Below, one piece after another: positions 14,203 through 57,685 of a DNA stretch of 64,000 nt. The notes under the pieces were generated by a model. It ran no database searches. It saw only the letters and a list, made by a program, of their open reading frames with translations, and was not told the DNA's origin. The position numbers and the translations under genes are program-made. Source of the stretch: Lytechinus pictus (Eukaryota); the NCBI RefSeq assembly GCF_037042905.1, contig NC_087250.1, positions 20,152,001 to 20,216,000 on the forward strand, read 5' to 3'. Numbering within the stretch: position 1 is the first letter of the stretch; each line of letters opens with the position of its first letter.

Positions 14203-24441
<10,239 letters not shown>

Positions 24442-30330: not shown

Positions 30331-33300
30331 TAGTAATCTGAATAGGATAAAGAAGTTGCTTCTTGTCTGATCCACACCTGTTTAATCAAGGTGTCTTTTT
30401 ACCTCTATGGATTATTGGACCAATAAAAATAGCACTTGAATACATGTACATGAGTACACTCTTTACCAATTTGTTTTTGTTTTTTGTTTCTTTTTTCTCT
30501 TAAAGATGGAATACCACTTTTACAGATGAAAATTCAAAACATTTGTAAATTTCAGGTACATTTCAGCTGAAATTTACATCCTGTTGTAGTTTACATGATG
30601 TTAGAGGTAAATTTCACTAGAACAATGTCCAACTGATATGCACTGTATCCTTCCTAGGTTACATTGAAAACACTGCATTACTTATTACATTCAATACAGT
30701 GCTTCATTGACGTGTAGTTTAATTGTAATGCAATGTGTGATAGAAAACTAAGAATGTGCTAGCATTGATTGGCCAAAAGAAAACACACAAAATGAGGTAC
30801 ATGTATTCATATTTACAATTTAAAACTGTTATCTTCAATTCGTTTGAAACGATGGAGATCATTCTTTTTTTTTAAAGAAAACATTAATTGATTGATATCA
30901 GATGAGTGTTGCATGTTGATAGAAGTGCTCTAAATTATTGACAAGATTAGGCTTTTGCCAGACATTTGTAAATGTGTTCAAAATCGTGTTGACAGCTTTT
31001 TAAAAAATGTGTGTTATTACGGTAGAATATAATGCATAATCTAATATTTTGAGCTTTCTTAAATGATAAATGTATTTTGTACTTAAGTTGTGTATTATTG
31101 GTACATGTACGCTAGATTTCAATTTGGAAAAAAATTAGGAGCAGTGTAGTACATTTATTTAAATTTGATTTTTAACTCATCAGATAAAGCATGTTTGAAT
31201 ATTTTGTTTAATAGCATTTTTAATGGATCGACTTTTCCTTCAAAATATGTACAGATTTTCACAAGTCAAAAAATTTATCAACCAATTCTATGTTTAAATG
31301 GTGTCTATATTATTGAGTAGAAAATTGAGTGATTGAGCTTTGATGTCTAACATCAATACAGTGTGATTTTTGCTTAAGACATCTTTGACTGCCATCTAGC
31401 AATGCTGTCTGATTTTTTGTGGCCATTCTCTGCAAGCAGTTTGCTTTTTATGGTCCTAGCCATATTTTGTACTAGTTATTGCATAATTATGTATAATTTG
31501 TATACACATATTTTTATGCTTGAATCCTATGGGGCGCCAAGTGTCCGCCAGTGTTTTCCGTCCAAATCACGGCATTCCGTACACAAAATGTGTTTTTATT
31601 CAGACGAAAATCATTTCGTCATGACGCTTTTTTATTTCGTACACAAAATTTATTTTTTGTCACACAAAATCAATTTCGTCTCGACGAAATGCACGAAATC
31701 AATTTCGTCTAGACGAAATGTAATTGCGTCCACAAAGTTTATTTGGCGTGCCATACGAAATGAATTTTTATCAAACGAAATGGCGCACCAAATGTCCGAT
31801 GGTAAATTCCGTCCAATTCACGCCATTCCGTACACAAAATGTGTTTTTGTTCATATAAAAATCATTTCGTCATGACGCAGTTTTATTTCGTATACGAAAT
31901 TATTTTTTGTCACACAAAATCAATTTTCGTCGAGACTAAGTGTAATTGCATCCACAAAATTTATTTCGTTGCGATGCGAAAATCTATTCCGTCGACGAAA
32001 TCATTTTGTGTCAAAACCACAAAAAAATTCCGTCAACGAAATGATTTTGTGTCAAAACACAAAAAAATTTCGTCGACGAAATGATTTTGTGTCATAACAC
32101 AAAAAAATTTCGTCGACGAAATGATTTTGTGTCAAAAGACAAACAAATTTCGTCGACGAAATGATTTTGTGTTTTGAGTCTTTTTGACATAAAATCATTT
32201 CGTCTCCTCTGTCTCGAAGGGGACATAAGAAGGTCGCTGATTGGCTGCACCTTAATATAATTGCTCAAGCTGTTTTCGCTCGTGATCGATCGTCCCATAG
32301 AGATGTATACATCTCTATGGGACGATCACACTTTTTCACAGCTCAGATTGGCATGTTGGTGAACTTATTAGCTTAGATTTCACGTTATTCATGCCTACAT
32401 GAGCTGCATACAACTGCTCTAATCGGTAGGATGTGGACGGACATTGCATTCGTAAGTTCAGCTATGTTTTCGACTTCAAAATTACGTTGAAAAAAAAATG
32501 GGAATTCGTTAGTCGTTACCAAACTTGCAATTGAATTGCATTTGCAAAAAGCTGTGTAACAATACCCGGTACTAACTTTAGTCCCGTGTATTGAAGTTTA
32601 TGTACTGTAGTCAGCAGACCATTGGGGGGGGGGGGGGGGTGGTCTTTTCTGCACACCTAAAAAGTAAAATGGTTATGAATTATACAGATTGAAGATATTT
32701 AGGCCTTGATCTTAATAAATAATGTAAAATTCATTTCGAGCAAAATGCTGAAAATTTCATTGAAATTGGATGACAACAAAAGTTATTGATGCCTGGCCGT
32801 ACATGCCGTATGAAACTCTAACGTTAGGCTACTCCACTCAGTGACTCACGCGTATTGCGAGGTTAGTATTAGTATACTAACCTCGCACCATTAACCACGT
32901 TTGGCAATGGATTTCTAACTAGTGGGTCACGCGTGCTGTGATCCCACTTCTGGTGTCCACAACTCACAACTTCTATTGCTTGATTTTTCTGTGCACGGCG
33001 GCATGTAATGAACCCTTGAGTGACTAGGCCTAAAAAACTCAGGCGATGGTTCGTATAGCCAGCCATTAAACACTCCACTATAGCCTATAGGTGAAGCGGA
33101 GGTTAGCAATGCAGTAGTGAAGTGTAGTGGAGCTTACACGAACCATCGCCTGCTGTACTACTAGTATAGTTGTGGTACTGCCTGGCCCTGGCCCCACTCA
33201 TTACTAGTTCGAGGTTAGTTGCTACATATAGTTGCTACAGTACATGTATAGATTTATAGTACTAACCTCGTACACCGAACTGCATTTGGCCCTGGATTTC

Positions 33301-33576
33301 TGTGAAGTTGGCAAACATCGCTTCATTACAATACAGAATTAATATTTGCCGAAACTCCTCGCTACTCACCGGGGCGCTTTGCGGTGAGTAGCCATAATAC
33401 AAAAAGTCAATAGTATATTTTTAATTAAATCAAAATCATATTTAAAAAAAAGCAAATTTGATTACTTTGGAGTTTGGACTAGAAAGTGACTTCGCGTGTC
33501 TCTTGTTTTTACGCAAATAAAAGGAAGCCAGATGGTGGCGCTAATAAATTTCACAGCCTTGATTCAGACTCGCTTC

Positions 33577-35972
33577 AAATGCAGCTCCTTGGTAATTATG
33601 CCCCCGCAGACAAAGTCCGGAGGGGGCATTAAGCGTTGCCCCTGTCCGTTGATTCGCCCGCCCCCCCCCCCACTTTCCGTGCAATAAATCGAAATATATT
33701 TCGATTTATATATATTGATTAAAATTTTTTTTGGTGTGTAGGTACATGACACCATAGTACAGGCTAACTTTGAATTCGGAGTCTGCAGGTCCAAGGTCAC
33801 AGCTCATGAAATATCCGAGTTGGTTTCCACATGATGACTTATGAAATATTCTACATATTTAAACGAATTTGAGTGTGTAGGTAGATGACACCAAAATACA
33901 GGTTAAGTTCGAATTCGTAGTCGGCAGGTCAAAGGTCACGGCTCATTAAATATGCAATTTAGTTTCCGCATGATTACTTCAAAAAAATATTCTACATATT
34001 TAAACAAATTAGAGTGTGTAGGTAGATGATACCAATACAGGCTAAGTTCGAATTCGGAGTATGCAGGTCAAAGATCACAGCTCCTTAAAGATATCTTATG
34101 AAATATTCAACAGATTTTTTAAAAATGTGGGTGTGTAGGTAGATGATGATGATGATGCACAGCATTTTTACAGCGGCGTAACAGGGTTCAGTGGCCAGGG
34201 GGGGGGGGGGGGGCAAGAGCCAAAAATTTCCCGGTCATATCATGGTATGAATAGGCGTAATGGTGTAATAAGGCGACTATTTTGAGAAATGCAGCTCCTT
34301 GGTAATTATGCCCCCGCAGACAAAGTCCGGAGGGGGCATTAAGCGTTGCCCCTGTCCGTTGATTCGCCCGCCCCCCCCCCCCCACTTGGTTTCCGCGCAA
34401 TAAATCGAAATATATTTCGATTTATATATATTGATTAAAAAAATTGTTGGTGTGTAGGTACATGACACCATATAGTACAGGCTAACTTTGAATTCGGAGT
34501 CTGCAGGTCCAAGGTCACAGCTCATGAAATATCCGAGTTGGTTTCCGCATGATGACTTATGAAATATTCAACAGATTTATAAAAATTATGGTGTGTAGGT
34601 AAATGACACCAAATACAGGCTAAGTTCGGAGTCGGCAGGTCAAAGGTCACGGCTCATTAAATATGCAATTTAGTTTCCGCATGATTACTTATGAAATATT
34701 CTAAATATTTAAACGAATTTGAGTGTGTAGGTAGATGACACCAAAATACAGGTTAAGTTCGAATTCGTAGTCGGCAGGTCAAAGGTCACGGCTCATTAAA
34801 TATGCAATTTAGTTTCCGCATGATTACTTATAAAATATTCTACATATTTAAACAAATTTGAGTGTGTAGGTAGATGATACCAATATTGGCTAAGTTCGAA
34901 TTCGGAGTATGCAGGTCAAAGATCACAGCTCCTTAAAGATATCTTATGAAATATTCAACAGATTTAAAAAAAATTTGGGTGTGTAGGTAGATGATGATGA
35001 TGATGCACAGCATTTTTACAGCGGCGTAACAGGGTTCGGTGGCCAGGGGGGGGGGGGGCAAGAGCCAAAAATTTACCGGTCATATCATGGTATGAATAGG
35101 CGTAATGGTGTAATAAGGCGACTATTTTGAGAAATGCAGCTCCTCGGTAATTATGCCCCCGCAGACAAAGTCCGGAGGGGGCATTAAGCGTTGCCCCTGT
35201 CCGTTGATTCGCCCGCCCCCCCCCCACTTGGTTTCCGCGCAATAAATCGAAATATATTTCGATTTATATATATTGATTAAAATTTTTTTTGGTGTGTAGG
35301 TACATGACACCATAGTACAGGCTAACTTTGAATTCGGAGTCTGCAGGTCCAAGGTCACAGCTCATGAAATATCCGAGTTGGTTTTCGCATGATGACTTAT
35401 GAAATATTCAACAGATTTATAAAAATTATGGTGTGTAGGTAGATGACACCAAATACAGGCTAAGTTCGGAGTCGGCAGGTCAGAGGTCACGGCTCATTAA
35501 ATATGCAATTTAGTTTCCGCATGATTACTTATGAAATATTCTAAATATTTTAACGAATTTGAGTGTGTAGGTAGATGACACCAAAATACAGGTTAAGTTC
35601 GAATTCGTAGTCGGCAGGTCAAAGGTCACGGCTCATTAAATATGCAATTTAGTTTCCGCATGATTACTTATAAAATATTCTACATATTTAAACAACTTTG
35701 AGTGTGTAGGTAGATGATACCAATACAGGCTAAGTTCGAATTCGGAGTATGCAGGTCAAAGATCACAGCTCCTTAAAGATATCTTATGAAATATTCAACA
35801 GATTTTTAAAAAATGTGGGTGTGTAGGTAGATGATGATGATGCACAGCATTTTTACAGCGGCGTAACAGGGTTCGGTGGCCAGGGGGGGGGGGGGCAAGA
35901 GCCAAAAATTTCCCGGTCATATCATGGTATGAATAGGCGTAATGGTGTAGTAAGGCGACTATTTTGAGAAAG
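33577..35972 (+). repeat. Three head-to-tail copies (0.7-0.85 kb) of a truncated HINE/Helentron-like element plus adjacent DNA
   Basis: Units start with AAATGCAGCTCC at about 33577, 34287 and 35132. There is a single inverted counterpart at about 54228..55316. Confidence 0.85.
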
Positions 35973-37075: not shown

Positions 37076-38455
37076 GGGCCCGTTTCTCAACACCGTCCTA
37101 AGTCTTCTAACTTCTTAACTAAATTGGAGATAGTGAGCTACTTGTCTACTAACTGTTTCACGAATCCCCCTTTGCCAAGATCGGGGACAACTTGACGAAA
37201 TAGTTATGACATCTCCGAACCTGTCATAACTTCTTTCTTAATGACGTAGTGATATCATGTGGGTAGACTATGACATTCAAATGAACCTCGAAATTCGAAA
37301 ATTATAATATTACGTAATAATTCATAGAAAATGAATTTTATTGCAAACAAGTGGGATAAATCATTCAATAGTAATTGTAATGCACAGAAATTATAACAAG
37401 TGTTGGTAAAAAATCACAAAACCATTCATTTTAAAGTAGTAAAATAATTGAATTGACAAAGATTCTACCACTTCAGGCCATCCATAATTGGACTTGTACT
37501 CGTTGCTTTCAGACCCTTATCAAGATTTTGATAAATTCTCTCTCTAATATATGCATAGAATTTATAAAATTGTGTGTTTTGGTATCTAAAGAGTTGAACA
37601 ATTCATGATGATAATATTTTGATGGTGTTTGGAATCCTAAAAGCCTGTATAATTATCATCATTTTAGGAAGAAAGCCTGCATGGTTTACTTACGTAAACT
37701 ATTCAAATTTTATATCTGGGGGTACCCATCTCAACGTCCACATGTGATTTTTATTTGGTCATGAAATGAATTAGTGATAATTTCATTTCCTCGGCAATTT
37801 AATGCCCATGTCTGCATGTTTGAGTATTTTTTATGCATATTTTGCCTCTGCTATTATTTTGATAGGATGTATTTCCAAATTCATCACAATAATTGTAAGT
37901 TTGGAGGAGCTGTGATGTAGTGGTTCTCACTCTCGCCTTGTAATCAGAGGGACGTGTGTTCGAATCCCACCGCGGTCTGGCGTCCTTTGGCAAGGCGTAA
38001 ATCCACACTTTGCCACTCTCGACCCAGGTGCTAAATTGGTACCCGGTAGGATGTGAAAGTCATTGTAGCTTGTCCAGTACAGTGTGCGCCTCACCGGCGA
38101 CGGACTGGAATACTCCCGAAGGAGTGGAGGATGTGCACACGTTGTGTGCGGGAATGACTGATTGAGTCCGATCACCGGGGTAATAATATATCTGTAAAGC
38201 GCTTAGACACGTCATTCCGATGTATTAAGTGCTATATAAAAGCGGATTATTATTATTATTATTAGGTTTTATCATAATTTTACTTTTTGAAAATTATGCT
38301 ATTTTGTGACTAAGGCTACGTCTCATGTACTTTCCACCAATAGTATACGATATCAATGGATTCTAGTTAATCCTTTTGGGTAAGATTGGAACTAACTCTG
38401 TGTTTGGTAGATAAAGTTATATGACTAACTTGTCCAAGTGTTGAGAAACGGGCCC
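37076..38455. mobile_element. Non-autonomous Harbinger-like element
   Basis: GGGCCCGTTTCTCAACAC TIRs, CTG TSD; contains a SINE. Partial inverted copy at about 51681..52470. Confidence 0.8.
37903..38262 (+). mobile_element. tRNA-derived SINE (family A)
   Basis: Matches 838..1185. Absent from the mirrored position in the right arm (about 51857). Confidence 0.85.
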
Positions 38456-38480
38456 CTGCTGAGTACATGTAGGCCTAGAG

Positions 38481-38830
38481 TTTTTATGCCCCCACAGACG
38501 AAGCCCAGAGGGGGCATTAAGCGTTGCCCCTGTCCGCCCCCCCCCCCACTTGGTTTCCGCGCAATAACTAAAAAAATATTTAATGGATTAAATAAAAAAT
38601 TCGTGTGTAGGTAGATGACCACGAAATACAGGTTAAGTTCGAATTCGGAGTCCGCAGGTCAAAGGTCACATCTCATTATATATGTAAGTCGGTTCAAAGG
38701 TCTAAATTTGTTAATTATATATATATGCATATTGGTTTCTGCATGATATTAAGTTCAATCATATTGAATGGATTTCTGATCGCGTTAAGCGGGGGCATCT
38801 GTGTCCTTTGGACACGTCAAATTTTCTTAA
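38481..38830 (+). mobile_element. HINE/DINE-1-like non-autonomous Helentron (further copies at about 40444..40795 + and 51318..51662 -)
   Basis: T-run start, subTIR ATGCCCCC / GGGGGCAT, 3' hairpin GTGTCCTTTGGACAC, no TSD. Confidence 0.7.
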
Positions 38831-38874
38831 TTATGTGTAATTGATTTTATGACATGTGTTTACATTTGCTGCAG

Positions 38875-39080
38875 ATTCCCATTCAGCCGTTGGACTGAAC
38901 CGGTACTGTAACACAGTATGGATGGTCAATATGAAGCGAGCTTCATTGAATTCCTCCAAGAGCTCTGTACTCCGTTTTGCTCATTTTGAAGATGGTTGCT
39001 TTGACAGGACTGGGCAAGTGACTCGTCTTAGACAGGATGCTTTCCCAACCATATTTGATTTCCTGCCTCGTCTTCAGAAG
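38875..39080 (+). pseudogene. THAP-domain exon, decayed (copy 1)
   Basis: CAG|A TTC CCA (FP), a frameshift, then W.VNMKR...SVLRFAHFEDGCFDRTGQVTRLRQDAFPTIFDF. The THAP LCSxHF Cys is replaced by Arg. Confidence 0.8.
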
Positions 39081-40839
39081 GTAGAGTAGATCTATATCAT
39101 ACATGTGTTCTAAAGAAATATTTTCTCTGTATTATCTACCTTTGGTTTGATAGAACATTGCTTTAAATATTCCATTTTCAGTAGCCAAATAGAGATGAAA
39201 ATTATCCTATTTGGGAGGGTAACCATGGACCTGGGCCTTTACTGTGTATTTACAGTAAACTCTTACTAAATGAACAAATATATTAAAAATTTGGTATACC
39301 CTACATAATAATCCTGGGCTACTTTTAGATTGCATAGCCCGGGGGGGGGGGCTGCTTTTTGGTCCCCCTCTTCAGATCTCCGTCGATCGCAACGAAAACC
39401 AATGCACACGTCACCATCAATGTAATCTGCAAGCATGGAGCTAAGGGTGTATCGCTGATTTTACAGAATTTAAATTTATTTTTAATAAATTAATAATGCT
39501 AATTTATGCCTAAATATAGAATTCTCTGTTTTAAAGGTAAATCTCTAAATAATTCCCCAAATTCTATGATTTCTAAACAAATGTGCTCCTGAAAAAAATG
39601 GTAAATCAAATTTCTAATCTAATGTATTTTATTGGTTTTATAATTCCATACGTATTTCTTAGTTTTGGGGCCTTATGTATTTTATTGGTTTTTTTCAATG
39701 GGATCACTTCGTGGTACTATTCCAATTATAAAAAGCACAGATTTGATTATTTTCAACCAATCAGTGCAAGAATAATGATGCATTTGTCAATTATGACTGA
39801 AAACAGAATTTCCATTGGATTAAATATGTATACAAAATAATATTTTTTAGCAATTTTTGGTCCAACATAAACTCATAAAATGTTGGGTAACTGCGTATCC
39901 GGGCGTCTCAAATTTGGTCTCAAAAGCTCTGTGAGAATTGAACGAAAAAAAAATAATGGTACCTCGTTTCTCATTGTGGACTTATCGTGAAATATGTGGA
40001 TGGGGGGGGGGGCTTATTAAGCCCCCCCCCCCGGGGCTAGATAGGGTTAATATATCATCATTAATATTTTTTTTAAAAAATCATTTTGTTGCAAGTCACT
40101 GGAAAAGGTTTGATTCCTAAATAAATATTATTCTTCATGTATTATCGAATATTTAATTGAAAAATTTAAAGCTATCTTTTTATTCGATGTATTAAGCGCT
40201 ATATAAAAGCGGATTATTATTATTATTAGGTTTTATCATAATTTTACTTTTTGAAAATTATGCTATTTTGTGACTAAGGCTACGTCTCATGTACTTTCCA
40301 CCAATAGTATACGATATCAATGGATTCTAGTTCATCCTTTTGGGTAAGATTGGAACTAACTCTGTGTTTGGTAGATAAAGTTATATGACTAACTTGTCCA
40401 AGTGTTGAGAAACGGGCCCCTGCTGAGTACATGTAGGCCTAGAGTTTTTATGCCCCCACAGACGAAGCCCAGAAAGGGCATTAAGCGTTGCCCCTGTCCG
40501 TCCCCCCCCCCCTTGGGTTTCCGCGCAATAACTCAAAAAATATTTAATGGATTAAAAAAAAATTTTGGTGTGTAGGTAGATGACCACAAAATACAGGCTA
40601 AGTTCGAATTCGGAGTCCGCAGGTCAAAGGTCACATCTCATTATATATGCAAGTCGGTTCAAAGGTCTGAATTTGTTAATTATATATATATGCATATTGG
40701 TTTCTGCATGATATTAAGTTCAATCATATTGAATGGATTTCTGATCGCGTTAAGCGGGGGCATCTGTGTCCTTTGGACACGTCAAATTTTCTTAATTATG
40801 TGTAATTGATTTTATGACATGTGTTTACATTTGCTGCAG

Positions 40840-41045
40840 ATTCCCATTCAGCCGTTGGACTGAACCGGTACTGTAACACAGTATGGATGGTCAATATGAA
40901 GCGAGCTTCATTGAATTCCTCCAAGAGCTCTGTACTCCGTTTTGCTCATTTTGAAGATGGTAGCTTTGACAGGACTGGGCAAGTGACTCGTCTTAGACAG
41001 GATGCTGTCCCAACCATATTTGATTTCCTGCCTCGTCTTCAGAAG
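40840..41045 (+). pseudogene. THAP-domain exon, decayed (copy 2)
   Basis: Tandem duplicate of copy 1; retains the AVPTIF box. Confidence 0.8.
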
Positions 41046-46912: not shown

Positions 46913-48176
46913 TTAAAATATGCGTTTACCATTCTTAGAAAACGCATGTTTCCTAAAACAAGTCCCTACCGCTCGGGAGTGAATGTGTCGCTCCCTCGCA
47001 CATATTCCAAAATATTTTGACTGACCCTGGGTAAATAAAATAAACAATTACAAAAACAAAAATGTTGTTTTTAATCTGAGACTATTTAATGCCCCTCGAA
47101 AGTTCACCTGCTTTCTCACTCTCCCCCTCTCTATCTTTGTTTTTATTCATTTTCATTTTACAATTCTTTCTTTCTCTTTTGATATCTATAAAGTTCAGAT
47201 TCACCCTCTCTAACTTGCACTATTCCAAGCCCCCGCCCCATTGGTATCCACAGGAACGGGGGAGGGGGGGGGGCTTACCCCCTGGAAAATAAAATCAAAC
47301 AAAAGAAAAATGTGAAAATAAAAATGGATAAAGACAAATAATCCTCTGCGCATGTCTAACCAGCCAATACAGTTCATTCAGAATTTAACTCTTACAACAC
47401 CTAAATTCTACCATATTATCAGTTTACCATGATTATAGAAAACGCATATTTCCTATGCCATTTTAAACAAGTCCCTATCGCTCGGGAGTGAACGTGTCGC
47501 GCACCAGCACAAATTCGAAAAATATTTTGATTGACCTGCTTTCTGGTTTTTTTTATCCGATGCTTTGCTCCCTCACACATACCACAATTTTTGTCCCTCT
47601 TTCCTTTTACTTCTGCTTGGTCACTTTGCTCCCTCTCACCGTATTCTCGAAATATTTTGGCCCCTGCATTTGTTCTTCTCGTCACTTTGCTCTCTCACAT
47701 ATATCCCCAGAATAATTTTTCTGCTCGGTCGCTTCGCTTCCTTGAACATATCCTAAAAATGTTTTGCTCCCCCTGCATTTTTTTCTGCAGACAGCCAATC
47801 CATTTCTCATCCAACCTCTCTCTCTCTCCAATACCTTGAAATGAGGGGGGGGGTACTTTTGATATGAGAGTGTCTGAACAATTGAAAATAAGTAAAATAT
47901 AATTTGGCTTTTTTTTGGTTTAGTTAATATTTTCTGAATGAGTGTATCTTACAAAAGGATTATACCCATTTCATTACATACAACATACACATATTTTGAG
48001 AAATACCAACAGAAAAAACATGTACTATTCATTACTGTCCAAATCCTCAAAAAAAAATTATGGTAATGTTCGCTTTCTCAGGCATTCATCAAAGGCTCCC
48101 CCACACCTGTCTCTCTTTCTCTATCACCCTCAATCTCAATTCATCTTTTTGTCTCTATCCAACAGCTCATTAGTAA

Positions 48177-48767
48177 AGGTCAAGTCTACCCAAGAAAATT
48201 GTTGGTTCAGTTAAATTGAGAAAAATCAAACTAGCATAACGCTGAAAATTTCATCAAAATCGGATGTAAACTAAGAAAGTTATGGCATTTTAAATTTTCA
48301 CTTATTTTTCACAAAACAAAAATATTCACAACTCAGTGACATGCAAATGAGACAGTCGATAATGTCCCTCACTCACTGTTTATTTTGTTTTTTATTGTTT
48401 GAATTATACAATATTTCATTTTTACAGATTTTACCATAAGGACTGAACCCAAAAAGTATTGAATAATGCTAATTCCACATGATCAGGGAGGAATAAAATT
48501 TCGTTTAACATGACAAGGAGAAAATTAGAATATACCTTATTCTATATATCAAATGAAATAGTGAGTGGATGACGTCATCAGTCTCCTCATTTGCATACCG
48601 ACTGTGTACAGAATGTGCATATAACTCTTTTGTAAAAATTTAGCAAAATTTTTAAATGTCATAACTTTCTTATTTTACATCCGATTTTTTATCAAATTTT
48701 CAGTGTTATGCTTGTTGGATTTTTCTCTTTTTATTCATATCAACAATTTTTGGGGTGGACTTGTCCT
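48177..48767. mobile_element. Kolobok-like non-autonomous element (right arm only)
   Basis: AGGTCAAGTCTACCC ... GGGTGGACTTGTCCT with long imperfect TIRs. Absent from the mirrored site at about 44040. Confidence 0.65.
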
Positions 48768-49034
48768 TTATCTGTCCCCCTTGCTCTATCCTGTTCTATT
48801 CTTCTGTCATCTTGCCGTTATTCCTACTTTTCACAAACTTTTTTCTCTTCTGACATTCTAAGTCAGGATGAATATACTGTAAGACATCATTTTTGCAACA
48901 CGTTCAAATTTAATGAATTCACTTTTGTTACATGCCCACTGATAAGCTATTTTAAATAATCAGAATGCACATTGGGGTAATTATTTGTTGTAAAGTTTTG
49001 CAAGTTATGTTTGTCCAAACTTAAGAGCAAGTAA

Positions 49035-49272
49035 TGTACACGGCGGGACTTCTCGTGTGTGGTTTTCAGCCTCTTCTCCAAGTTCTTAATACAGTCCATT
49101 ATTGCTGTTAACTTCCACTTTACCCCTCTTGGACTTTCTGATATTGAGTAGGAGTGGTCCTTGAGAAATAAAGGTGCTGAAGACTTTGGTACAGGTGTCT
49201 TTGCAGTATCTGGGAGGTTGTTTGCTGAATCAAAACATCTTTCTTTCGGGGAATTCCTTGGTTTGGTGAATT
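49035..49272 (-). pseudogene. Mirror copy of the DHSY exon
   Basis: Reverse complement of 43548..43775 with indels. Confidence 0.7.
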
Positions 49273-51063
49273 CTGTACGAGACGAATGAATTTAAAAAAA
49301 AGAAATATTGAACAAAAACGAAACAAGAATGAAAAGATAACTTTAAATTTTTCAATTAAATATTCGATAATGCATGAAGAATAATATTTATTTAGAAATC
49401 AAACCTTTTCCAGTGACTTGCAACAAAATAAATGTTTTTTAAAATATTCATGATGATATATTAACCCTATCTAGCCCCTGGGGGGGGGGCTGAATAAGCC
49501 CCCCCATCCACATTTTTCACGATAAGTACACAATGAGAAACGAGGTACCACAATTTTTTTTTTCGTTCAATTCTCGCAGAGCTTTTAGACAAAATTTGAG
49601 ACGCCCAGATACGCAGTTATGCAACATTTTATGAGTTCATGTTGGACCGAAAATTGCTCAAAAATATTATTTTGTATACATATTTAATCCAATGGAAATT
49701 CTATTTTCAGTCATAATTGACAAATGCATCATTATTCTTGCACTAATTGGTTGAAAATAATCAAATCTTGCTTTTTATAATTGGAATAGTGCCACGAAGT
49801 GATCCAATTGAAAAAAAACTATAAAATACATAAGGCCCCAAAACAAAGAAATACGTATGGAATTATATAGAACCAATAAAATACATAAAAGTAGAAATTT
49901 GATTTACCATTTCTTCAGGAGCACATTTGTTTAGAAATCATAGAATTTGGGGAATTATTTAGGGATTTATCTTTAACCCTAAATAGACTGGGCTATTTCG
50001 ACGCCTAAGAAGACGGGGGGGGGGGGGGGGGGGCTGATTCAGCCCCCCTTATGATCTCGGCCGTTGATCTCCCAATCGCGACGAAAATTGGCACGCGCGT
50101 TACCCATGGCATTATCTACAATACCATAATATCAAAATCTGCGAAAAATCTCATTGCTCATTATGTTAATTAATGCGTAAAATCACAAGTTTGCTCTAAT
50201 TAACAAAATAATGCCCCTAAAATGCTCATTTTTGTTTCACTTACTCTTTATAGGCATCTGATTAAATTAATTTTTAAAAAAGTTGTCAACATCACATTCA
50301 TTTTTTATGTATTTTATTGTTTTCTAAATTTCTTATGTATTTCTGTGTTTTTCGACTTTTTGTTTTTTATTGTTTTTTCAATGGAAATTGTCGGAGACGT
50401 TTTTTTTACCATAAACAAGATAAAATTAATTGATTTTGAGAAGTAAAAGGAAAAATATGATACATTTTATAAATTTTGGCTAAAAACACTACTTGCATTG
50501 GATTTGTACACAAATACACGTTTTTGAGCAATTTTGGTTCTGCATGCAGTTACGAAATGTTGCGTAATTTCGGAACCCTGTACCTGGGGGTCACAATTTT
50601 GGTCTCAAAAGTTGCGCAAGACTTGAAAGTAAAAAGTCAACGAGTGACGCGGTCAAAAAAATTCGCGCGACGGATTTATGGCGAAAAATGTCGAGCTCCA
50701 TGCTTGCAGATTACATTGATGGTGACGTGTGCATCGGTTTTCGTTGCGATCGACAGTGCATGGAGATCTGAAGAGGAGGACCAAGAAGGCCCCCCCCCCC
50801 CCCGGGCTATGCAATCTCAAAGTAGCCCAGGATTATTATGTAGGGTAAACCAAATTTTTAATATATTTGTTCATTTAGTAAGAGTTTACTGTAAATACAC
50901 AGTATAGGCCCAGGTCCATGGTTACCCTCCCAAATAGGATAATTTTCATCTCTATTTGGCTACTGAAAATGGAATATTTAAAGCAATGTTCTATCAAACC
51001 AAAGGTAGATAATACAGAGAAAATATTTCTTTAGAACACATGTATGATATAGATCTACTGTAC

Positions 51064-51273
51064 CTTCTGAAGACGAGGCAGGAAATCAAACATGGTTGGG
51101 ACAGCATCTTGTCTAAGACGAGTCACTTGCCCAGTCCTGTCAAAGCAACCATCTTCAAAATTATCAGAACGGAGTACAGAGCTCTTGGAGGAATTCAATG
51201 AAGCTCGCTTCATATTGACCATCCATACTGTGTTACAGACAGTACCGGTTCAGTCCAACGGCTGAATGGGAAT
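51064..51273 (-). pseudogene. THAP-domain exon, decayed (copy 3, right arm)
   Basis: Reverse complement of 38875..39080 with a 4-bp insertion; reads LRSDNF in place of LCSxHF. Confidence 0.78.
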
Positions 51274-54200
51274 CTGCAGCAAATGTAAACACATGTCATA
51301 AAATCAATTACACATAATTAAGAAAATTTGACGTGTCCAAAGGACACAGATGCCCCCGCTTAACGCGATCAGAAATCCATTCAATATGATTGAACTTATC
51401 ATGCAGAAACCAATATGCATATATATAATTAATTAACAAATTTAGACCTTTGAACCGACTTGCATATATAATGAGATGTGACCTTTGACCTGCGTACACC
51501 GAATTCGAACTTAGCCTGTATTTTGTGGTCATCTACCTACACACCAAAATTTTTTTAAATCCATTAAATATTTTTCGAGTTATTGCGCAGAAACCAAGTG
51601 GGGGGACGGACAGGGGCAACGCTTAATGCCCCTTCCGGGCTTCGTCTGCGGGGGCATAAAAACTCTAGGCCTACTCAGCAGGGGCCCATTTCTCATTACC
51701 TGGACAAGTTAGTCGTATATCTTTATCTATTAAACACAGAGTTAGTTCCAATCTTACCCAAAAGGATTAACTAGAATCCATTGATATCGTCATATTGATA
51801 CTATTGGTGGAACAAAAATAGCATAATTTTCAAAAAGTAAAATTATGATAAAACTTACAATTATTGTGATGAATTTGGAAATACATCCTATCAAAATAAT
51901 AGCAGAGGCGAAATATGCATAAAACATACTCAAACATGCAGACATGGACATTAAATTGCTGAGGAAATGAAATTATCAGTAATTCATTTCATGACAAAAA
52001 AAATCACATGTATGTGGACATTGAGATGGGTATCCCCAGATATAAAATTTGAATAGTTTAAGTAAACCATACAGGCTTTCTTCCTAAAATGATGATAATT
52101 ATACAGGTTTTTAGGATTCCAAACACCATCAAAATATTATCATCATGAATAAACTCTTTAGATACCGAAACACACGATTTTATAAATTCTATGCATATAT
52201 TAGAGAGAGAATTTATCAAAATCTTGATAAGGGTCTGAAAGCGACGAGTACGAGTCCAATTATGGATGGCCTGAAGTGGTAGAATCTTTGTCAATTCAAT
52301 TATTTTACTATTTTAAAATGAATGGTTTTGTGATGTTTTACCAACACTTGTTATAATTCTGTGCATTACAATTACTATTGAATGATTTATCCCACTTGTG
52401 TGCAATATAATTCATTTTCTATAAATTATTATGTAATATTATAATTTTCGAATTTCGAGGCTCATTTGCATGTATTATGGTGTCATCTATCTAAACACCC
52501 AATTTTAAAAAAATCTGTTGAAATTTTATAAGTTATTATGAGGATACCAACTCGCATATTTAATGACCCTGTGTAGTGGTCCACCTGCATTCCCCCAACC
52601 AGTTATCGGGAGGAGAGACCTGCGGGTCACAGTTCTGTGTGCGCGCCCTTGTAGGCGACCCAGATTGGCTGGCTCCTCCAATATGCCTTTGAATGTCTTT
52701 GACAGATATATGGTGCTATAAAAATGCAGTGGCGTAACAGGCGGGGGGGCAGGGGGGGCAAGTTGCCCCCCCCCTGGCGGATTTCACCGGGAAAATAAAA
52801 AAAAAACGGGAAAAAGAAAAAAAGGAGGGAGAAAGAAAGGGAAAGGGGAAGGAAAGGGGAAAAGGAAAGGAGGAAAGGGAAATGGAAAGAGAAAAGGAAA
52901 AAGACAACGAAGAAAAAACTGTTTTTAGTAGAAAAGGGAGGAAAGCGGGAAAATGTACGATAGAATTAACATTTGAAAAAGAACAAATCATTGAGAAAAG
53001 GGCCTATGTAATGCAATAGCACGGTGGGAAATAAATTAAAAGATGACAAAATGGCAAACAATAGCGGGAAACAAAGGTAGAATGTAATTAGTCAAGAGCT
53101 AAATTAGAAAACAAAGAAAAGGAACAAGAAAAAAAATAACACGACCGGGCTGCTGATGATTGAAATTAAAGAGCGAGAAGAAAGATGGACTGCATTGTGC
53201 TATAAGTTTTCTAAATTTTATGCAAATAAGCTACCGGGGCTTTGCCCCAGACCCCACAAAGTAGGGGCTCTTCATTTATAATCTTCAAATGGCTCTATAA
53301 CGCCCCCGTTCAATCACGTTCAATCACTGCCATACAGGCGGGGGGGGGGGGGGTCGTGGTTCCACACCCAAGAGGATATAAAAGAAATTTTATAGGAGAC
53401 AACGTACATGACGTATAATGAAATGAATGGAAACAATGAAATGTGTTATTTGCTGAATATAATGGAAAAATCTATCACATAATTAGATTTTAATTTCAAT
53501 AGGCAATTTTTTCCAGCTCGCTTTGCACACTGGCGACTTTTTACAAATTTTCCCACATTTCTATGTTTTGCCCCCTCAAAATATTTGGTTCATTATGCAA
53601 CTGGGTTGAATAAATGTGTTGTGTAAAAGCTATATTATGCCCGCGATTTGATTAAAATTGGGGAAATCTGCAAGGTTTAAATGGCTTTGATATCAAGAAG
53701 TTCCTGGGGCTCTGCCCTGGACCCCAAACGCACAGCACTGCGTATGGAAGGGTTGGGCCATGGCCCCAAAAAGTTCTACAGCCAAGAACAAAAAAAGGAG
53801 GAATTACCTCCTTTTTTGTTGGAAAAGTATTGTAGGATATGATTTTAATGACTGAATATGTTAAAAAATAGCTCAAAGTTAGATTCTCATGAAAAGATGA
53901 TTTTTTTTTCTCGCTCGCTTCGCTCGCTCAGGACATATATATATAAAGCAGCCTTTTGGCACATGTTCTATACTGCGCTCCTCGTTGTTTTTTTGTTTTG
54001 TTTTTTACTCTTCACGCTACTGCCGCAAAGAATCCTCTTCACAGTGGCGTACAGACCACCGTGACAAAAAAGGAATCTAAAGAGAGAAGAATTAAATAAA
54101 TTTATTATCTGGATATCATGTCAAAATCTATCACAAAATTGGATTTTTGTATTAAAAAGGTTTAAAAAAAATTGCTCGCTCGCTTCGCTCGCTCGCAACT

Positions 54201-54886
54201 TTTTTTTAAAGATAAATTCTGGCCTTCTCAAAATAGTCGCCTTATTACACCGTTACGCCTATTCATACCATGATATGACCGGTAAATTTTTGGCTCTTGC
54301 CCCCCCCCCCCTGGCCACCGAACCCTGTTACGCCGCTGTAAAAATGCTGTGCATCATCATCATCATCATCTACCTACACACCCAAATTTTTTAAAAATCT
54401 GTTGAATATTTCATAAGATATCTTTAAGGAGCTGTGATCTTTGACCTGCATACTCCGAATTCGAACTTAGCCTGTATTGGTATCATCTACCTACACACTC
54501 AAATTTGTTTAAATATGTAGAATATTTTATAAGTAATCATGCGGAAACTAAATTGCATATTTAATGACCCGTGACCTTTGACCTGCCGACTACGAATTCG
54601 AACTTGACCTGTAGTTTGGTGTCGTCTACCTACACACTCAAATTCGTTTAAATATGTAGAATATTTCATAAGTAATCATGCGGAAACTAAATTGCATATT
54701 TAATGAGCCGTGACCTTTGACCTGCCGACTCCGAACTTAGCCTGTATATGGTGTCATCTACCTACACACCCTAATTTTTATAAATCTGTTGAATATTTAA
54801 TAAGTCATCATGCGGAAACCAACTCGGATATTTCATGAGCTGTGACCTTGGACCTGCAGACTCCGAATTCAAAGTTAGCCTGTACT

Positions 54887-55162
54887 GTCGTGGTCTAGTG
54901 GTTCTGACTCTCGCCTTTGAGACAGAGGGTCGTGTGTTCGAATCGTAGCCATGGCGTATTTTCCTTCAGCAAGAAATTTATCCACACTGTGCTGCACTCG
55001 ACCCAGGTGAGGTGAATGGGTACCCGGCAGGAGTAATTCCTTGCATGCACTGAGCGCCGGTGATGGTAGCTCGAGCTAAAGCCGGGGTAATAATAGCAGC
55101 GCTTTGTATCCTCTGGCAAAAAGCGCTTTATAAATCCAACTATTATTATTATTATTATTATT
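54887..55162 (+). mobile_element. tRNA-derived SINE (family B), right arm only
   Basis: Matches 21938..22212; interrupts the HINE-like unit. Confidence 0.85.
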
Positions 55163-57685
55163 ACTATGGTGTCATGTACCTACACACCGAAATATATTTC
55201 GATTTATTGCGCGGAAACCAAGTGGGGGGGGGCGGGCGAATCAACGGACAGGGGCAACGCTTAATGCCCCCTCTGGACTTTGTCTGCAGGGGCATAATTA
55301 CCAAGGAGCTGCATTTGAAGCGAGCCTGAATCAAGGCTGTGAAATTTATTAGCGCCACCATCAGGCTTCCTTTTATTTGCGTAAAAAGAAGAGACACGCG
55401 AAGTCACTTTCTAGTCCAAACTCTAAAGTAATCAAATTTGCTTTTTTTTTAATATGATTTTGATTTAATTAAAAATATACTATTGACTTTTTGTATTATG
55501 GCTAATCACCGCAAAGCGCCCCGGTGAGTAGCGAGGAGTTTCGGCAAATATTAATTCTGTATTGTAATGAAGCGATGTTTGCCAACTTCACAGAAATCCA
55601 GGGCCAAATGCAGTTCGGTGTACGAGGTTATACTATAGATCTATACATGTACTGTAGCAACTATATGTACTGTAGCAACTAACCTCGAACTAGTAATGAG
55701 TGGGCATGGTGGGGCCAGGGCCAAGGCTACCACAACTATACTAGTACAGCAGGCGATGGTTCGTGTAAGCTCCACTACACTTCACTACTGCTAACCTCCG
55801 CTTCACCTATAGGCTATAGTGGAGTGTTTAATGGCTGGCTATACGAACCATTGCCTGAGTTTTTTAGGGCCTATAGTCACTCAAGGGTTCATTACATGCC
55901 GCCGCGCACAGAAAAATCAAGCAATAGAAGTTGTGTGTTGTGGACACCAGAAGTGGGATCACGTACAGCACGCATGACCCACTAGTTAGAAATCCATTGC
56001 CAAACGTGGTTAATGGTGCGAGGTTAGTATACTAATACTATAACCTCGCAATACGCGTGAGTCACTGAGTGGAGTAGCCTAACGTTAGTTAGAGTTTCAT
56101 ACGGCATGTACGGCCAGGCATCAATCTGTCAATAACTTTTGTTCATTGTTGTCATCCAATTTCAATGAAATTTTCAGCATTTTGCTCGGAATGAATTTTA
56201 CATTATTTATTAAGATCAAGGCCTAAATATCTTCAACCTGTATAATTCATAACCATTTTACTTTTTTGGTGTGCAGAAAAGACCCCCCCCCCCCAATGGT
56301 CTGCTGACTACAGTACATAAACTTAAATACACGGGACTAGTATTGTTACACAGCTTTTTGCAAATGCAAGTTTGGTAACGACTAACGAATTCCCATTTTT
56401 TTTTCAACGTAATTTTGAAGTCGAAAACATAGCTGAACTTACGAATGCAATGTCCGTCCACATCCTACCGATTAGAGCAGTTGTATGCAGCTCATGTAGG
56501 CATGAATAACGTGAAATCTAAGCTAATAAGTTCACCAACATGCCAATCTGAGCTGTGAAACAGTGTGATCGATCGTCCCGGAGCGAAAACAGCTTGAGCA
56601 AGGTGCAGCCAATCAGCGACCTTCTTATGTCCCCTTCGAGACAGAGGAGACGAAATGATTTTATGTCAAAAAGACTCAAAACACAAAATCATTTCGTCGA
56701 CGAAATTTTTTTGTCTTTTGACACAAAATCATTTCGTCGACGAAATTTTTTTGTGTTTTGACACAAAATCATTTCGTCGACGAAATTTTTTTGTGTTTTG
56801 ACACAAAATCATTTCGTCAACGAATTTTTTTTGTGGTTTTGACACAAAATGATTTCGTCGACGGAATAGATTTTCACATCGCAACGAAATAAATTTTGTG
56901 GACGCAATTACATTTAGTCTCAACGAAAATTGATTTTGTGTGACAAAAACTAATTTCGTATACGAAATAAAACTGCGTCATGACGAAATGATTTTCATAT
57001 GAACAAAAACACATTTTGTGTACGGAATTGCGTGAATTGGACGGAATTTACCATCGGACATTTGGTTCGCCATTTCGTTTGATAAAAAATCATTTCGTAT
57101 GGCACGCCAAATAAACTTTGTGGACGCAATTACATTTCGTCTAGACGAAATTGATTTCGTGCATTTCGTCGAGACGAAATTGATTTTGTGTGACAAAAAA
57201 TAAATTTTGTGTACGAAATAAAAAAGCGTCATGACGAAATGATTTTCGTCTGAATAAAAACACATTTTGTGTACGGAATGCCGTGATTTGGACGGAAATC
57301 ACTGCCGGACACTTGGCGCCCCATAGAATCCTGGGGGTTGAATGAATTGAATTGAATTTCACCTAACAAAGTTAGTCACACAGAATTAGACAACATAAGC
57401 CAAACTGAATTTTGAACATGGCCAAAGTATTTGAAACATTTAGCATGTTTAGTAATGCATGTATATAATCTACTTTCGTCTAGAAAATAACGGCAAAAAA
57501 ACATAACCCTAAATGCCTTGTTCCGGGCCTTGTTTCCCAACCATACATATATATGCAAATAGACCTTTACTATTATACCCCAGGGCCCCGTTGCATAAGT
57601 GTAACTATTATGTTAACTTTGCTATCCAATGGTAACTACATACCATGAAATCCTTGATATTGATTGGCTGTTGGGCCATGTTACC

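What the first reader, a model, noticed from the sequence alone, without database searches (positions are those of the whole stretch)
31528..57325. A 25.8-kb transposon-bounded giant palindrome: nearly the whole element is terminal inverted repeat
Seen: 31528..about 44965 is mirrored by about 45300..57325, leaving a non-mirrored centre of only about 0.3 kb plus arm-specific patches. A perfect GAATCC duplication flanks the whole unit. The arms differ by SNPs and private events: a SINE at 37903, a triplication at 33577 and a 2-kb duplication in the left arm; a Kolobok-like element at 48177 and a SINE at 54887 in the right arm. This argues against a simple read fold-back artefact. Inference: a cut-and-paste element whose TIRs grew to more than 10 kb by copying one arm onto the other, reminiscent of Galileo/fold-back elements but much larger. 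It may be an undescribed giant fold-back family.
Basis: partly seen in the sequence, partly recalled or inferred. Interest (0 to 1): 0.85.

Follow-up and report, generated by a model that had tools for sequence, protein, structure and literature searches.

The report
Giant palindromic transposon family in urchin
A 25.8-kb mobile DNA element that is almost wholly a mirror image of itself is one of about thirty similar copies in a sea-urchin genome: an unusually large relative of fold-back transposons with no transposase gene of its own.

Summary
Window 31528..57325 is a 25,798-bp element flanked by a perfect GAATCC duplication, and its arms mirror each other. It is not an assembly artefact. The same termini (TATGGGGCGCC...) occur at 91 places in the 812-Mb genome and form 32 convergent pairs, 25 of them 22-29 kb apart. 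All 7 copies read in full are palindromes. 10 of 11 elements checked have perfect 6-bp duplications.

The palindrome is much older than the copies. Arms show 0 fixed differences in the outer ~2 kb, 1-2% mid-arm and 15.6% near the centre, while copies differ by about 1%. This does not fit TIRs that grew inwards.

No copy encodes a transposase. Each arm holds only a decayed 5' piece (THAP exon plus linker) of a THAP9/P-like gene, pointing inwards.

6-bp duplications with TA...TA ends are the published hallmarks of IS3EU/GingerRoot. This is my best assignment (about 50%), but no autonomous partner was found.

Verdict: a real, non-autonomous, giant fold-back-like family. It is a new variant of a known kind.

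The parts
31522..31527 (.). Left target-site duplication, GAATCC
   Evidence: Read directly. It matches 57326-57331.
31528..57325 (.). The whole element: 25,798 bp with TA...TA termini (TATGGGGCGCCAAGTGTCCG... at both ends, inverted)
   Evidence: It is G000:C6:20183528-20209325.
31528..32253 (+). Left tip domain. It holds the terminal motif, a 251-bp sub-repeat (31529-31680 is about equal to 31780-31931), a 40-bp tandem array at 31986-32172 carrying the palindromic ATTTCGTC/GACGAAAT motif, and 14 exact ATTTCGTC sites.
   Evidence: 97.7% to 57326-56600. for the tandem repeats; 58 ATTTCGTC sites in the window against 1.95 expected.
33577..35971 (+). Left-arm array of repeats of about 857 bp, themselves built of 139-bp units. 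The mirrored single unit is at 54225-54886.
   Evidence: Copy number differs between copies.
37903..38265 (+). SINE-like insert with a tRNA-like head and an (ATT)n tail, private to this copy
   Evidence: found in 0 of 6 other copies. A relative lies at window 840-1184.
38214..41660 (+). Tandem duplication of about 2 kb (38214-39693 and 40182-41660, 97.8% alike)
   Evidence: In one search the THAP segment inside the duplicated unit appears twice in the left arms of W and E and once in the other five copies. In one search a 650-bp stretch of the unit appears three times in E's left arm.
38853..39086 (+). THAP-domain exon relic, left arm copy 1, pointing to the centre
   Evidence: PF05485, E = 3.2e-5.
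40818..41051 (+). THAP-domain exon relic, left arm copy 2 (protein P0001)
   Evidence: PF05485, E = 6.3e-6, 27.3 bits against a cut-off of 23.9. Also.
41681..41896 (+). 216-bp SINE-like insert private to this copy
   Evidence: found in 0 of 6 others; gap in the chains; reads and contigs join 41680 to 41897.
41976..42837 (+). 163-bp satellite (5.3 units). It is specific to the left arm and shared by the other copies.
43644..43766 (+). Relic of the second exon (DHSY motif and start of a coiled coil) of the THAP9/P-like gene, left arm
   Evidence: tblastn to residues 49-90 of the 817-aa ORF of L040, E = 7e-5.
44044..44962 (+). Innermost, most diverged part of the left arm. It pairs with 48176-47227.
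   Evidence: 78.9% with gaps. L-R 81.8% against L-L 98.8% and R-R 99.4%; 94 fixed differences in 603 sites.
45451..45950 (+). Central array, left half: 8 copies of ATTTNGTCYA, all on the + strand
   Evidence: It pairs weakly (64%) with 46913-46533.
45951..46480 (.). Unpaired core around the axis of symmetry, with a poly-G run at 46376-46397
46481..46950 (-). Central array, right half: 6 copies of the same motif, all on the - strand
47227..48176 (-). Innermost, most diverged part of the right arm
48174..48770 (.). It is in the right arm only, in all 7 copies, at the step from about 2% to about 16% arm divergence.
   Evidence: self-inverted at 68%; present in 7 of 7 copies at 97%.
48950..49291 (-). 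Second-exon relic, right arm. It is 91% identical to residues 57-156 of P0004.
51058..51249 (-). THAP-domain exon relic, right arm, pointing to the centre. It is 98% identical to residues 1-53 of P0004.
   Evidence: PF05485, E = 8.9e-5. Also.
54887..55187 (+). SINE-like insert private to this copy
   Evidence: 301 bp here against 52 bp in all 6 other copies. Also.
56600..57325 (-). Right tip domain: 40-bp array at 56681-56867 and 15 ATTTCGTC sites
57326..57331 (.). Right target-site duplication, GAATCC

Best explanation
This is one insertion of a multi-copy family of giant, non-autonomous, cut-and-paste DNA transposons in a sea urchin. The closest annotated protein is from Lytechinus pictus.

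Structure. Each element is a diverged palindrome of 22-29 kb. It has two tip domains of about 0.7 kb ending in TA and packed with ATTTCGTC/GACGAAAT repeats. It has two arms of about 10-14 kb. Each arm carries the decayed 5' end of a THAP9/P-like gene pointing inwards. The small centre is flanked by inverted arrays of a related motif.

How it moves (inferred). A transposase supplied in trans binds the tip repeats, cuts at the TA ends and inserts with a 6-bp staggered cut. From the 6-bp duplication plus TA...TA ends, the enzyme is most likely of the IS3EU/GingerRoot (integrase-like DDE) type. The THAP9-like piece would then be a captured gene fragment.

Origin (inferred). An old inverted duplication, or an inverted dimer, of a smaller element.

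History (part shown, part inferred). It is shown that both arms are copied faithfully at each transposition, so left and right arms persist as distinct lineages. It is inferred that the outer few kb have been re-homogenised between arms, most simply by conversion tracts that start at the tips during break repair.

My sub-confidences:
- real mobile palindromic family: 0.95
- non-autonomous: 0.85
- IS3EU/GingerRoot type: about 0.5
- tip-inward homogenisation: about 0.4
For: Mobility
- Perfect 6-bp flanking repeats in 10 of 11 elements checked (W, A-F, T_C3, X_W, X_C15). S_C3 is imperfect.
- The 20-mer terminus has 91 exact sites, against 0 for the reversed control.
- Pairing those sites by hand, together, gives 32 convergent pairs of 16 kb or more. 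25 of them are 22-29 kb apart.
- The element splits one copy of a dispersed repeat. In 3 of 3 paralogues fetched, the left-flank and right-flank homologues abut.

The palindrome is family-wide
- 7 of 7 copies read in full are 64-67% covered by inverted matches.
- 29 of 32 pairs hold convergent THAP exons of a 'long' and a 'short' type (with coordinates).

Age
- Substitution-only identity between copies is 98.6-99.4%. L-R identity is 98.7-98.8% (tip, outer), 96.9%, 96.6% and 81.8% going inwards.
- Fixed L/R differences: 0/565, 0/310, 7/627, 12/650 and 94/603.

Independence of the arms in situ
- This copy carries three private SINE-like inserts.

No transposase
- No ORF longer than 165 aa in any of the 7 copies.
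- The only Pfam matches above the curated threshold among 112 ORFs are THAP (two above it, a third THAP hit just below); the other listed matches are weak and below threshold.
- tblastn with the 817-aa P-like ORF finds only residues 38-90.

Superfamily
- PMC6839031 (passages read): GingerRoot has 5'-TA...TA-3' ends, mostly 6-bp TSDs, and often carries gene fragments.

Binding-site-like repeats
- ATTTCGTC occurs 58 times in the window against 1.95 expected. 52 of the 58 lie in the four tip domains.
Against: - No autonomous element with these termini was found. Searches with IS3 and IS481 models returned mostly long ORFs of 1100-1580 aa. Of the two hits read, one is a Gypsy-type retrotransposon and one carries an HHCC zinc domain.
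- One HHCC-less rve ORF was found but could not be linked to the termini.
- The only protein relic inside the element is P/THAP9-like. That would also fit a P-superfamily origin.
- Reported GingerRoot TIRs are 100-150 bp and the elements 3.9-12.9 kb. This family is far outside the described range.
- Evidence for ongoing arm-to-arm homogenisation is weak. Variants shared by both arms of one copy amount to one site (E) and one clustered stretch (A), against 6 doubletons shared between different copies in the tip segment.
- This copy's own tips differ by 2.4%.
- BLAST finds no similarity between the centre and the tips, so the 'relic inner ends' idea rests on a short motif only.
- Only 7 of the 32 pairs were read in full. 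Some small contigs may be alternative haplotypes.
Confidence: 0.6

Rival explanations
1. It is a P-superfamily fold-back element, a giant analogue of Galileo. It descends from a P/THAP9-like transposon by inverted duplication of its 5' half and is moved by a THAP9-like transposase of the host genome.
For: - Both arms carry, pointing inwards, a THAP exon (PF05485) and the next exon's DHSY/coiled-coil stretch. That stretch matches residues 38-90 of an intact 817-aa ORF holding Tnp_P_element (PF12017) at G000:C12:261277-263727.
- The exon ends at the same ...LQK position in both.
- The terminus starts YATG, like CATG of the P element (recalled).
- Galileo has long, internally repetitive TIRs (abstract of PMC3573991 as listed).
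Against: - The duplication is 6 bp in 10 of 11 elements. P, Galileo and 1360 make 7-8 bp (recalled).
- No catalytic part of the transposase is present in 7 of 7 copies.
- The THAP relic is only 52-55% identical to the genomic P-like genes. It also has R where the third zinc ligand (C) should be.
- No terminal motif lies within 10 kb of the C12, C18, C7 or C21/C4 P-like loci. At the C4:23.08 Mb partial copy only the extent of homology was checked.
Confidence: 0.15
2. It is a gutted Polinton/Maverick derivative. These are large elements with long TIRs and 6-bp duplications. It would be moved in trans by a Polinton integrase.
For: - 6-bp duplication.
- Size of 22-29 kb and long TIRs.
- PMC10045372 gives 6 bp as the TSD length for Polinton.
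Against: - None of the 112 ORFs of 60 aa or more matches a polymerase, integrase, capsid or ATPase family.
- The ends are TA...TA. Polintons are recalled to end AG...CT.
- Polintons are not palindromic beyond their TIRs.
Confidence: 0.07
3. It is an assembly artefact: a fold-back chimeric read, or two haplotypes joined head to head.
For: Long palindromes are a known product of chimeric long reads. No spanning long read could be examined here: the only DNA-type runs on offer were short contigs.
Against: - The same architecture occurs at 32 loci on 17 contigs.
- Left and right arms are distinct and identically differentiated in all 7 copies read.
- Each locus has its own 6-bp duplication.
- This copy has three arm-private SINE inserts.
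- The inner arms differ by 18%.
Confidence: 0.01

Closest known systems
IS3EU/GingerRoot superfamily of DNA transposons (Repbase IS3EU; GingerRoot of Selaginella; PMC10045372 and PMC6839031, passages read)
   Same: - TA...TA termini.
- 6-bp target duplications.
- TIR-bounded.
- A tendency to carry fragments of host genes.
- IS3EU-classed repeats are listed in automated annotations of two other sea-urchin genomes (tables in PMC11316814 and PMC13745590).
   Different: - Described TIRs are 100-150 bp and elements 3.9-12.9 kb. Here the inverted arms are 10-14 kb and the elements 22-29 kb.
- No integrase-like transposase has been tied to this family.
Fold-back elements: Drosophila FB, Tetris and Galileo, and the TU elements of the sea urchin Strongylocentrotus purpuratus
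   Same: - Long TIRs built of tandem sub-repeats.
- Little or no coding capacity.
- Internally deleted mini forms.
- Occurrence in sea urchins. The TU elements are only cited in PMC4079207. The TU papers themselves were not available.
   Different: - Published TIRs are about 1-2 kb: Tetris reaches 1,735 bp. Galileo at about 1.2 kb is recalled.
- Duplication lengths of 7-9 bp for these families are recalled, against 6 bp here.
- No sequence comparison with TU was possible.
Bacterial composite transposons with inverted IS arms (Tn5, Tn10), as a model of origin
   Same: Two inverted copies of one unit move as a whole by their outer ends. The inner ends are disused. Here that would correspond to the inverted ATTTNGTCYA arrays at the centre.
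   Different: - No cargo lies between the arms.
- The arms encode no transposase.
- The dimer origin is an inference.
Large arm-to-arm converting palindromes of sex chromosomes
   Same: Inverted arms of about 10 kb or more with regions kept nearly identical.
   Different: Those are fixed chromosomal structures, not mobile ones. Here identity is highest at the outer tips and decays towards the centre.

Membership tests
IS3EU/GingerRoot | Target-site duplication usually of 6 bp | tested here: met
   10 of 11 elements have perfect 6-bp direct repeats and one (S_C3) is imperfect. The criterion comes from PMC10045372 and PMC6839031.
IS3EU/GingerRoot | 5'-TA...TA-3' termini | tested here: met
   All 11 elements begin TATG(G/A)GG at both ends. 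There are 91 exact terminal sites.
IS3EU/GingerRoot | An autonomous member with the same ends encodes an IS3/IS481-like DDE transposase without an HHCC zinc domain | tested here: inconclusive
   - There is none inside the 7 copies.
- Genome searches with NF033516 and NF033577 gave mostly long retrotransposon-sized ORFs. L047, read, is a Gypsy-type element.
- L051 has an HHCC domain.
- P0007 lacks HHCC but is low-copy and unlinked to any terminus.
Fold-back class (structural) | Very long TIRs with internal tandem sub-repeats that make up most of the element; no transposase | tested here: met
P superfamily (P, Galileo, 1360) | 7-8-bp target duplication (recalled) | tested here: not met
   The duplication is 6 bp in 10 of 11 elements.
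P superfamily (P, Galileo, 1360) | THAP-domain transposase with a P-type catalytic domain | tested here: not met
   Only the C-terminal half of a THAP domain plus about 50 residues of linker are present. Residues 91-817 of the P-like ORF have no match in 7 of 7 copies.
Polinton/Maverick | Protein-primed polymerase B, rve integrase and capsid genes | tested here: not met
   Pfam scan of 112 ORFs.
Polinton/Maverick | 6-bp target duplication | tested here: met
.
TU elements of S. purpuratus | Sequence or repeat-unit identity with the published TU inverted repeats | not testable with these tools
   No TU sequence or paper is held.

The most novel reading that the evidence does not exclude
A cut-and-paste transposon can persist and multiply as a 25-kb near-complete palindrome. 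Its two arms are inherited as separate lineages over a span about fifteen times longer than the recent burst of copies. The outer kilobases are repeatedly rewritten from one arm to the other by repair that starts at the ends. The palindrome itself, by folding back, would bring the two distant ends together, so that length no longer limits transposition. If so, this would be the largest fold-back transposon described. It would also be a natural design for moving very large DNA with a simple DDE enzyme.
Probability: 0.25. Interest if true: 0.8.

Novelty: new variant of a known kind. Interest (0 to 1): 0.62.

Why it matters
- Fold-back transposons are known, but with inverted arms of about 1-2 kb. 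Here a family with 10-14-kb arms has made about thirty recent copies.
- Very large, hairpin-prone DNA can therefore be mobilised efficiently in an animal germ line.
- The family offers a natural experiment on how long palindromes survive, how the two arms exchange sequence, and whether folding back helps a transposase to pair distant ends.
- It probably extends the little-studied IS3EU/GingerRoot superfamily to a new structural extreme.
- It shows that a 'THAP domain-containing protein 2-like' gene model in a sea-urchin annotation (P0004) matches a decayed relic inside this transposon.
- Such elements are also likely hot spots for rearrangement and for assembly errors.

Tried and rejected
Search for the partner transposase
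- P/THAP9-like loci at C12, C4, C18, C7 and C21/C4 were fetched. None carries the terminal motif or TIRs. The C18 copy is an internal-deletion duplicate, and the C4 copy at 23.08 Mb is a partial duplicate, of the C12 gene. The C21 and C4:26.17 Mb loci are 99.5% duplicates of each other.
- The THAP hit at C5:48.08 Mb is only an older fragment of the element.
- IS3 and IS481 models mostly found long ORFs of 1100-1580 aa. The one top hit read (L047) is a Gypsy-type retrotransposon.
- L051 has an HHCC domain.
- P0007 is unlinked to any terminus.
- A looser terminal pattern gave 111 sites, adding only a few small derivatives.
- The 1,498 sites found with up to 3 mismatches (control 28) could not be listed.

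Other searches that gave nothing
- Rfam found nothing in 31000-63500.
- BLAST finds no similarity between the centre and the tips.

Test for homogenisation within a copy
- There are no clean shared-private sites when gapped columns are excluded.
- With them included there is one site plus one cluster.
- So I do not claim ongoing conversion in situ.

RNA
- No RNA holder is listed.
- In two raw RNA-seq runs, of which about 6% was read, element-specific bins have depth 0-7. Only nested SINE, satellite and poly-G parts are deep. No spliced joint links the THAP exons.
- This is weak evidence of silence in those samples only.

Sources that were empty or not held
- Earlier findings of this scan: none.
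- The TU-element paper is not held.
- Literature searches for giant or palindromic DNA transposons gave no precedent in the held library. Repbase could not be consulted, so 'not described' is unproven.

Full report
**Observation**

The window is G000:C6:20152001-20216000 of an 812-Mb, 368-contig genome.

- A self-comparison confirms a large inverted structure between 31528 and 57325.
- The outermost 727 bp of the two arms are 97.7% alike. Identity with gaps is 92-97% further in, 88% at 43019-44037 / 49815-48779, and about 80% at 44044-44962 / 48176-47227.
- The element starts TATGGGGCGCC at 31528 and ends with the reverse complement at 57325. GAATCC lies at 31522-31527 and at 57326-57331.
The pair 44770-44963 / 45510-45303 is a local inverted repeat, produced because a piece of the right arm's inner end (47024-47415) has a direct copy at 45116-45486.
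- The true axis is near 46.15 kb. Beyond the BLAST-visible arms there are two weakly matching (64%) arrays, 45497-45898 and 46913-46533, around a core of about 0.5 kb.

**A family, not an artefact**

- The first 173 bp of the element have 40 near-identical (99-100%) matches in the genome.
- The 20-mer TATGRGGCGCCAAGTGTNCG has 91 exact sites, 49 forward and 42 reverse, against 0 for the reversed control.
- Pairing forward and reverse sites by hand, with two extra sites, gives 32 convergent pairs of 16 kb or more. 25 are 22-29 kb apart. Seven are 16.6-64 kb, and one of these looks like a copy nested in another, at C15:3389991-3439132.
- Small contigs may be alternative haplotypes, so 32 is an upper bound on loci.
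- I fetched six other full copies. All are palindromes, with 64-67% of their length in inverted matches of 300 bp or more, and all show the same decline of arm identity towards the centre.
- All seven large copies have perfect, different 6-bp flanking repeats: GAATCC, CCCCCT, CCCCCC, AACGTG, GGGGGC, CATATT and CGGGCG.
- So do a 758-bp derivative (TGCACC) and two copies of a related 5.27-kb family (GTTACC, GATTAC). A 1.17-kb derivative has imperfect flanks. The total is 10 of 11.
- In 29 of the 32 pairs, one search finds a 'long' THAP exon (97-99% to P0001) and a 'short' one (about 87-90%) facing each other. The differentiated two-arm plan therefore holds across the family.
- The last 125 bp of the left flank belong to a dispersed repeat (38 other matches). 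In 3 of 3 paralogues fetched, the homologues of the left and right flanks abut, overlapping by 8 bp. The 25.8 kb therefore interrupts one repeat copy. The paralogues differ around the duplicated hexamer, so this is not an exact empty site.

**Anatomy**

- Tips: about 0.7 kb with a 251-bp sub-repeat and a 40-bp tandem array whose unit holds the palindrome ATTTCGTC/GACGAAAT.
- The 8-mer ATTTCGTC occurs 58 times in the window against 1.95 expected. 14 and 15 sites lie in the two tips, 13 and 10 in the TIRs of the neighbouring 5.27-kb element, and 5 near the centre.
- The centre carries 8 copies of ATTTNGTCYA on the + strand (45451-45950) and 6 on the - strand (46481-46950). There are 5 in the remaining 63 kb.
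- Arms: repeats of about 857 bp made of 139-bp units, a 163-bp satellite (left arm only, shared by other copies), and a copy-number-variable duplication of about 2 kb. A palindromic MITE at 48174-48770 is present in the right arm of all 7 copies.
- This copy also has three private SINE-like inserts, at 37903-38265, 41681-41896 and 54887-55187. Each is in 0 of the 6 other copies.
- RNA and DNA records that join 41680 to 41897 show the uninterrupted form elsewhere.

**Coding content**

- No ORF exceeds 165 aa in any of the seven copies.
- Of 112 ORFs of 60 aa or more, only three hit a Pfam family convincingly, all THAP (PF05485): 38853-39086 (+), 40818-41051 (+) and 51058-51249 (-). The match covers profile positions 32-87 only.
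- The closest database proteins are 'THAP domain-containing protein 2-like [Lytechinus pictus]' (92%) and L. variegatus proteins (74-78%). This is how I place the genome among sea urchins.
- That L. pictus model (P0004) matches the right arm's two exon relics: residues 1-53 at 98% to 51058-51249 (-), and residues 57-156 at 91% to 48950-49291 (-).
- The second relic (DHSY motif and the start of a coiled coil) matches residues 38-90 of an intact 817-aa ORF at G000:C12:261277-263727 that contains Tnp_P_element (PF12017). The THAP exon of that gene ends at the same ...LQK.
- Nothing beyond residue 90 is present in any copy.
- The third zinc ligand of the THAP finger is R in the element.
- So each arm carries a decayed 5' piece of a THAP9/P-like gene, directed towards the centre.

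**History of the arms**

For five homologous segments I aligned both arms of all seven copies. The 'outer' segment could be recovered for only 12 of the 14 arms, because the left arms of B and D were missing. Identities are substitution-only.

| Segment | L-L | R-R | L-R | Fixed L/R differences |
|---|---|---|---|---|
| tip | 98.9 | 98.8 | 98.8 | 0/565 |
| outer (32330-33560) | 98.9 | 98.8 | 98.7 | 0/310 |
| THAP region | 98.7 | 99.2 | 96.9 | 7/627 |
| 43350-44030 | 99.4 | 98.6 | 96.6 | 12/650 |
| 44060-44880 | 98.8 | 99.4 | 81.8 | 94/603 |

- In the three inner segments the trees split cleanly into a left and a right clade (support 0.99-1.0).
- The mirror therefore existed long before the present copies diverged by about 1%, and each transposition copies both arms faithfully.
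- The innermost part is the oldest. This is the reverse of what inward growth of the TIRs predicts.
- The jump from about 2% to about 16% coincides with the MITE that sits in the right arm only.
- The simplest reading is an old inverted duplication or inverted dimer, whose outer parts were later overwritten arm-to-arm in tracts that begin at the tips and tend to stop at heterologies. This is inference.
- Direct signs of recent exchange are few. Copy E has arms 100% identical over the 1.2-kb outer segment. In the tip segment only one site and one cluster are shared by both arms of a single copy.
- In this copy the arms have drifted apart since insertion: tips 97.6%, three private SINEs, and 20 private substitutions in 650 sites of one segment, most of them on the right-arm branch in the tree. 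In-situ conversion is therefore not evident.

**Which transposase**

Duplication length and terminal dinucleotides are the usual superfamily markers.

- PMC10045372 states that complete IS3EU families always have TA..TA termini and usually 6-bp TSDs, and that GingerRoot has 6-bp TSDs and mostly TA..TA ends.
- PMC6839031 adds TIRs of 100-150 bp, sizes of 3.9-12.9 kb and frequent captured gene fragments.
- Both markers are met here, and a captured THAP9-like fragment fits.
- The defining enzyme was not found. IS3 and IS481 models hit mainly long ORFs of 1100-1580 aa, and the one top hit I read (L047) is a Gypsy-type retrotransposon. One shorter hit has the HHCC domain that IS3EU lacks. One HHCC-less rve ORF (P0007, a 799-aa frame at C14:1133106-1133903) is low-copy and not near any terminus.
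- The P-like loci carry no terminal motif.
- I put IS3EU/GingerRoot at about 0.5, P-type at 0.15 and Polinton-derived at 0.07.

**Expression**

Two raw RNA-seq runs of the same species label, with about 6% of each read, give depth 0-7 over element-specific bins. Depth is high only over nested SINEs, satellites and poly-G runs, and no joint links the THAP relics. This is weak evidence that the element is not appreciably transcribed in those samples.

**Comparison and novelty**

- Structurally this is a fold-back-type transposon, a class first seen outside Drosophila in a sea urchin (cited in PMC4079207).
- Published arms are about 1-2 kb (Tetris up to 1,735 bp).
- I found no report of TIR-bounded elements with 10-kb arms in the held library.
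- I could not consult Repbase, nor the TU papers.
- I therefore rate it a new variant of a known kind: real, mobile, recently amplified, and extreme in size. Its transposase is still to be identified.

Noticed in passing
window 57686-62955 (TSD GTTACC at 57680-57685 and 62956-62961): A second, 5.27-kb element lies 360 bp to the right of the giant one. It has related ends (TATGAGGCGCCAAGTGTACG), 700-bp TIRs (95%) built of 60-bp repeats with the same ATTTCGTC motif, and no long ORF. A 97.9% identical copy lies at G000:C15:6878179-6883425 with TSD GATTAC.
   Followed up: partly
G000:C3:35918275-35919032 and C3:75227283-75228456 (L028, L027): Miniature derivatives of the giant element made of tip sequence only: 758 bp with a perfect TGCACC duplication, and 1,174 bp with imperfect flanks. 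Other short pairs at C7:10893024-10893848, C7:35015847-35016010 and C12:8959244-8960471 were not read.
   Followed up: partly
G000:C15:3389991-3439132: Four termini in the order + + - - suggest one copy of the family inserted into another.
   Followed up: no
G000:C4:25185327-25225165, C8:27757336-27776821, C30:354955-412765: More diverged relatives also hold facing THAP exons (THAP exon 76-92% identical to P0001). The palindromic plan therefore seems older than the young subfamily.
   Followed up: no
G000:C12:261277-263727 (L040:4778-7231): An intact 817-aa P-element/THAP9-like ORF preceded by a THAP exon. There is an internal-deletion copy at C18:12870106-12872527 (98.5%) and a partial copy at C4:23082190-23084225 (93%). 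No TIRs are seen. It may be a host gene or a low-copy transposon.
   Followed up: partly
G000:C14:1133106-1133903 (L052, P0007): An integrase-core (rve) ORF of 799 aa without an HHCC zinc domain in the 113 residues upstream. It is a candidate DNA-transposon-type integrase but is not linked to any terminus.
   Followed up: partly
window 31400-31525 and 57336-57360: The insertion site lies in the tail of a dispersed repeat, with 38 other matches at 81-92%, that ends in TTGAAT-type short repeats.
   Followed up: partly
window 2326-4149 (-): A 607-aa open frame that looks, by eye, like a non-LTR retrotransposon reverse transcriptase.
   Followed up: no
window 22801-24441 (+): A 546-aa open frame with a long run of C2H2 zinc fingers (TGEKPY linkers, 84-bp periodicity in the DNA). 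It is probably an exon of a zinc-finger gene.
   Followed up: no
window 15706-16108, 16887-17905 and 28993-30243: Minisatellite arrays: periods of about 56-64 bp in the first two and about 110 bp in the third.
   Followed up: no
window 46376-46397 and 50015-50034: Poly-G runs collect thousands of RNA-seq reads with poly-G loose ends and false 'joints' between the two sites. This is a sequencing artefact, not splicing.
   Followed up: yes
protein P0004: A public gene model named 'THAP domain-containing protein 2-like' of Lytechinus pictus matches the two exon relics in the right arm of this transposon family at 91-98%.
   Followed up: yes
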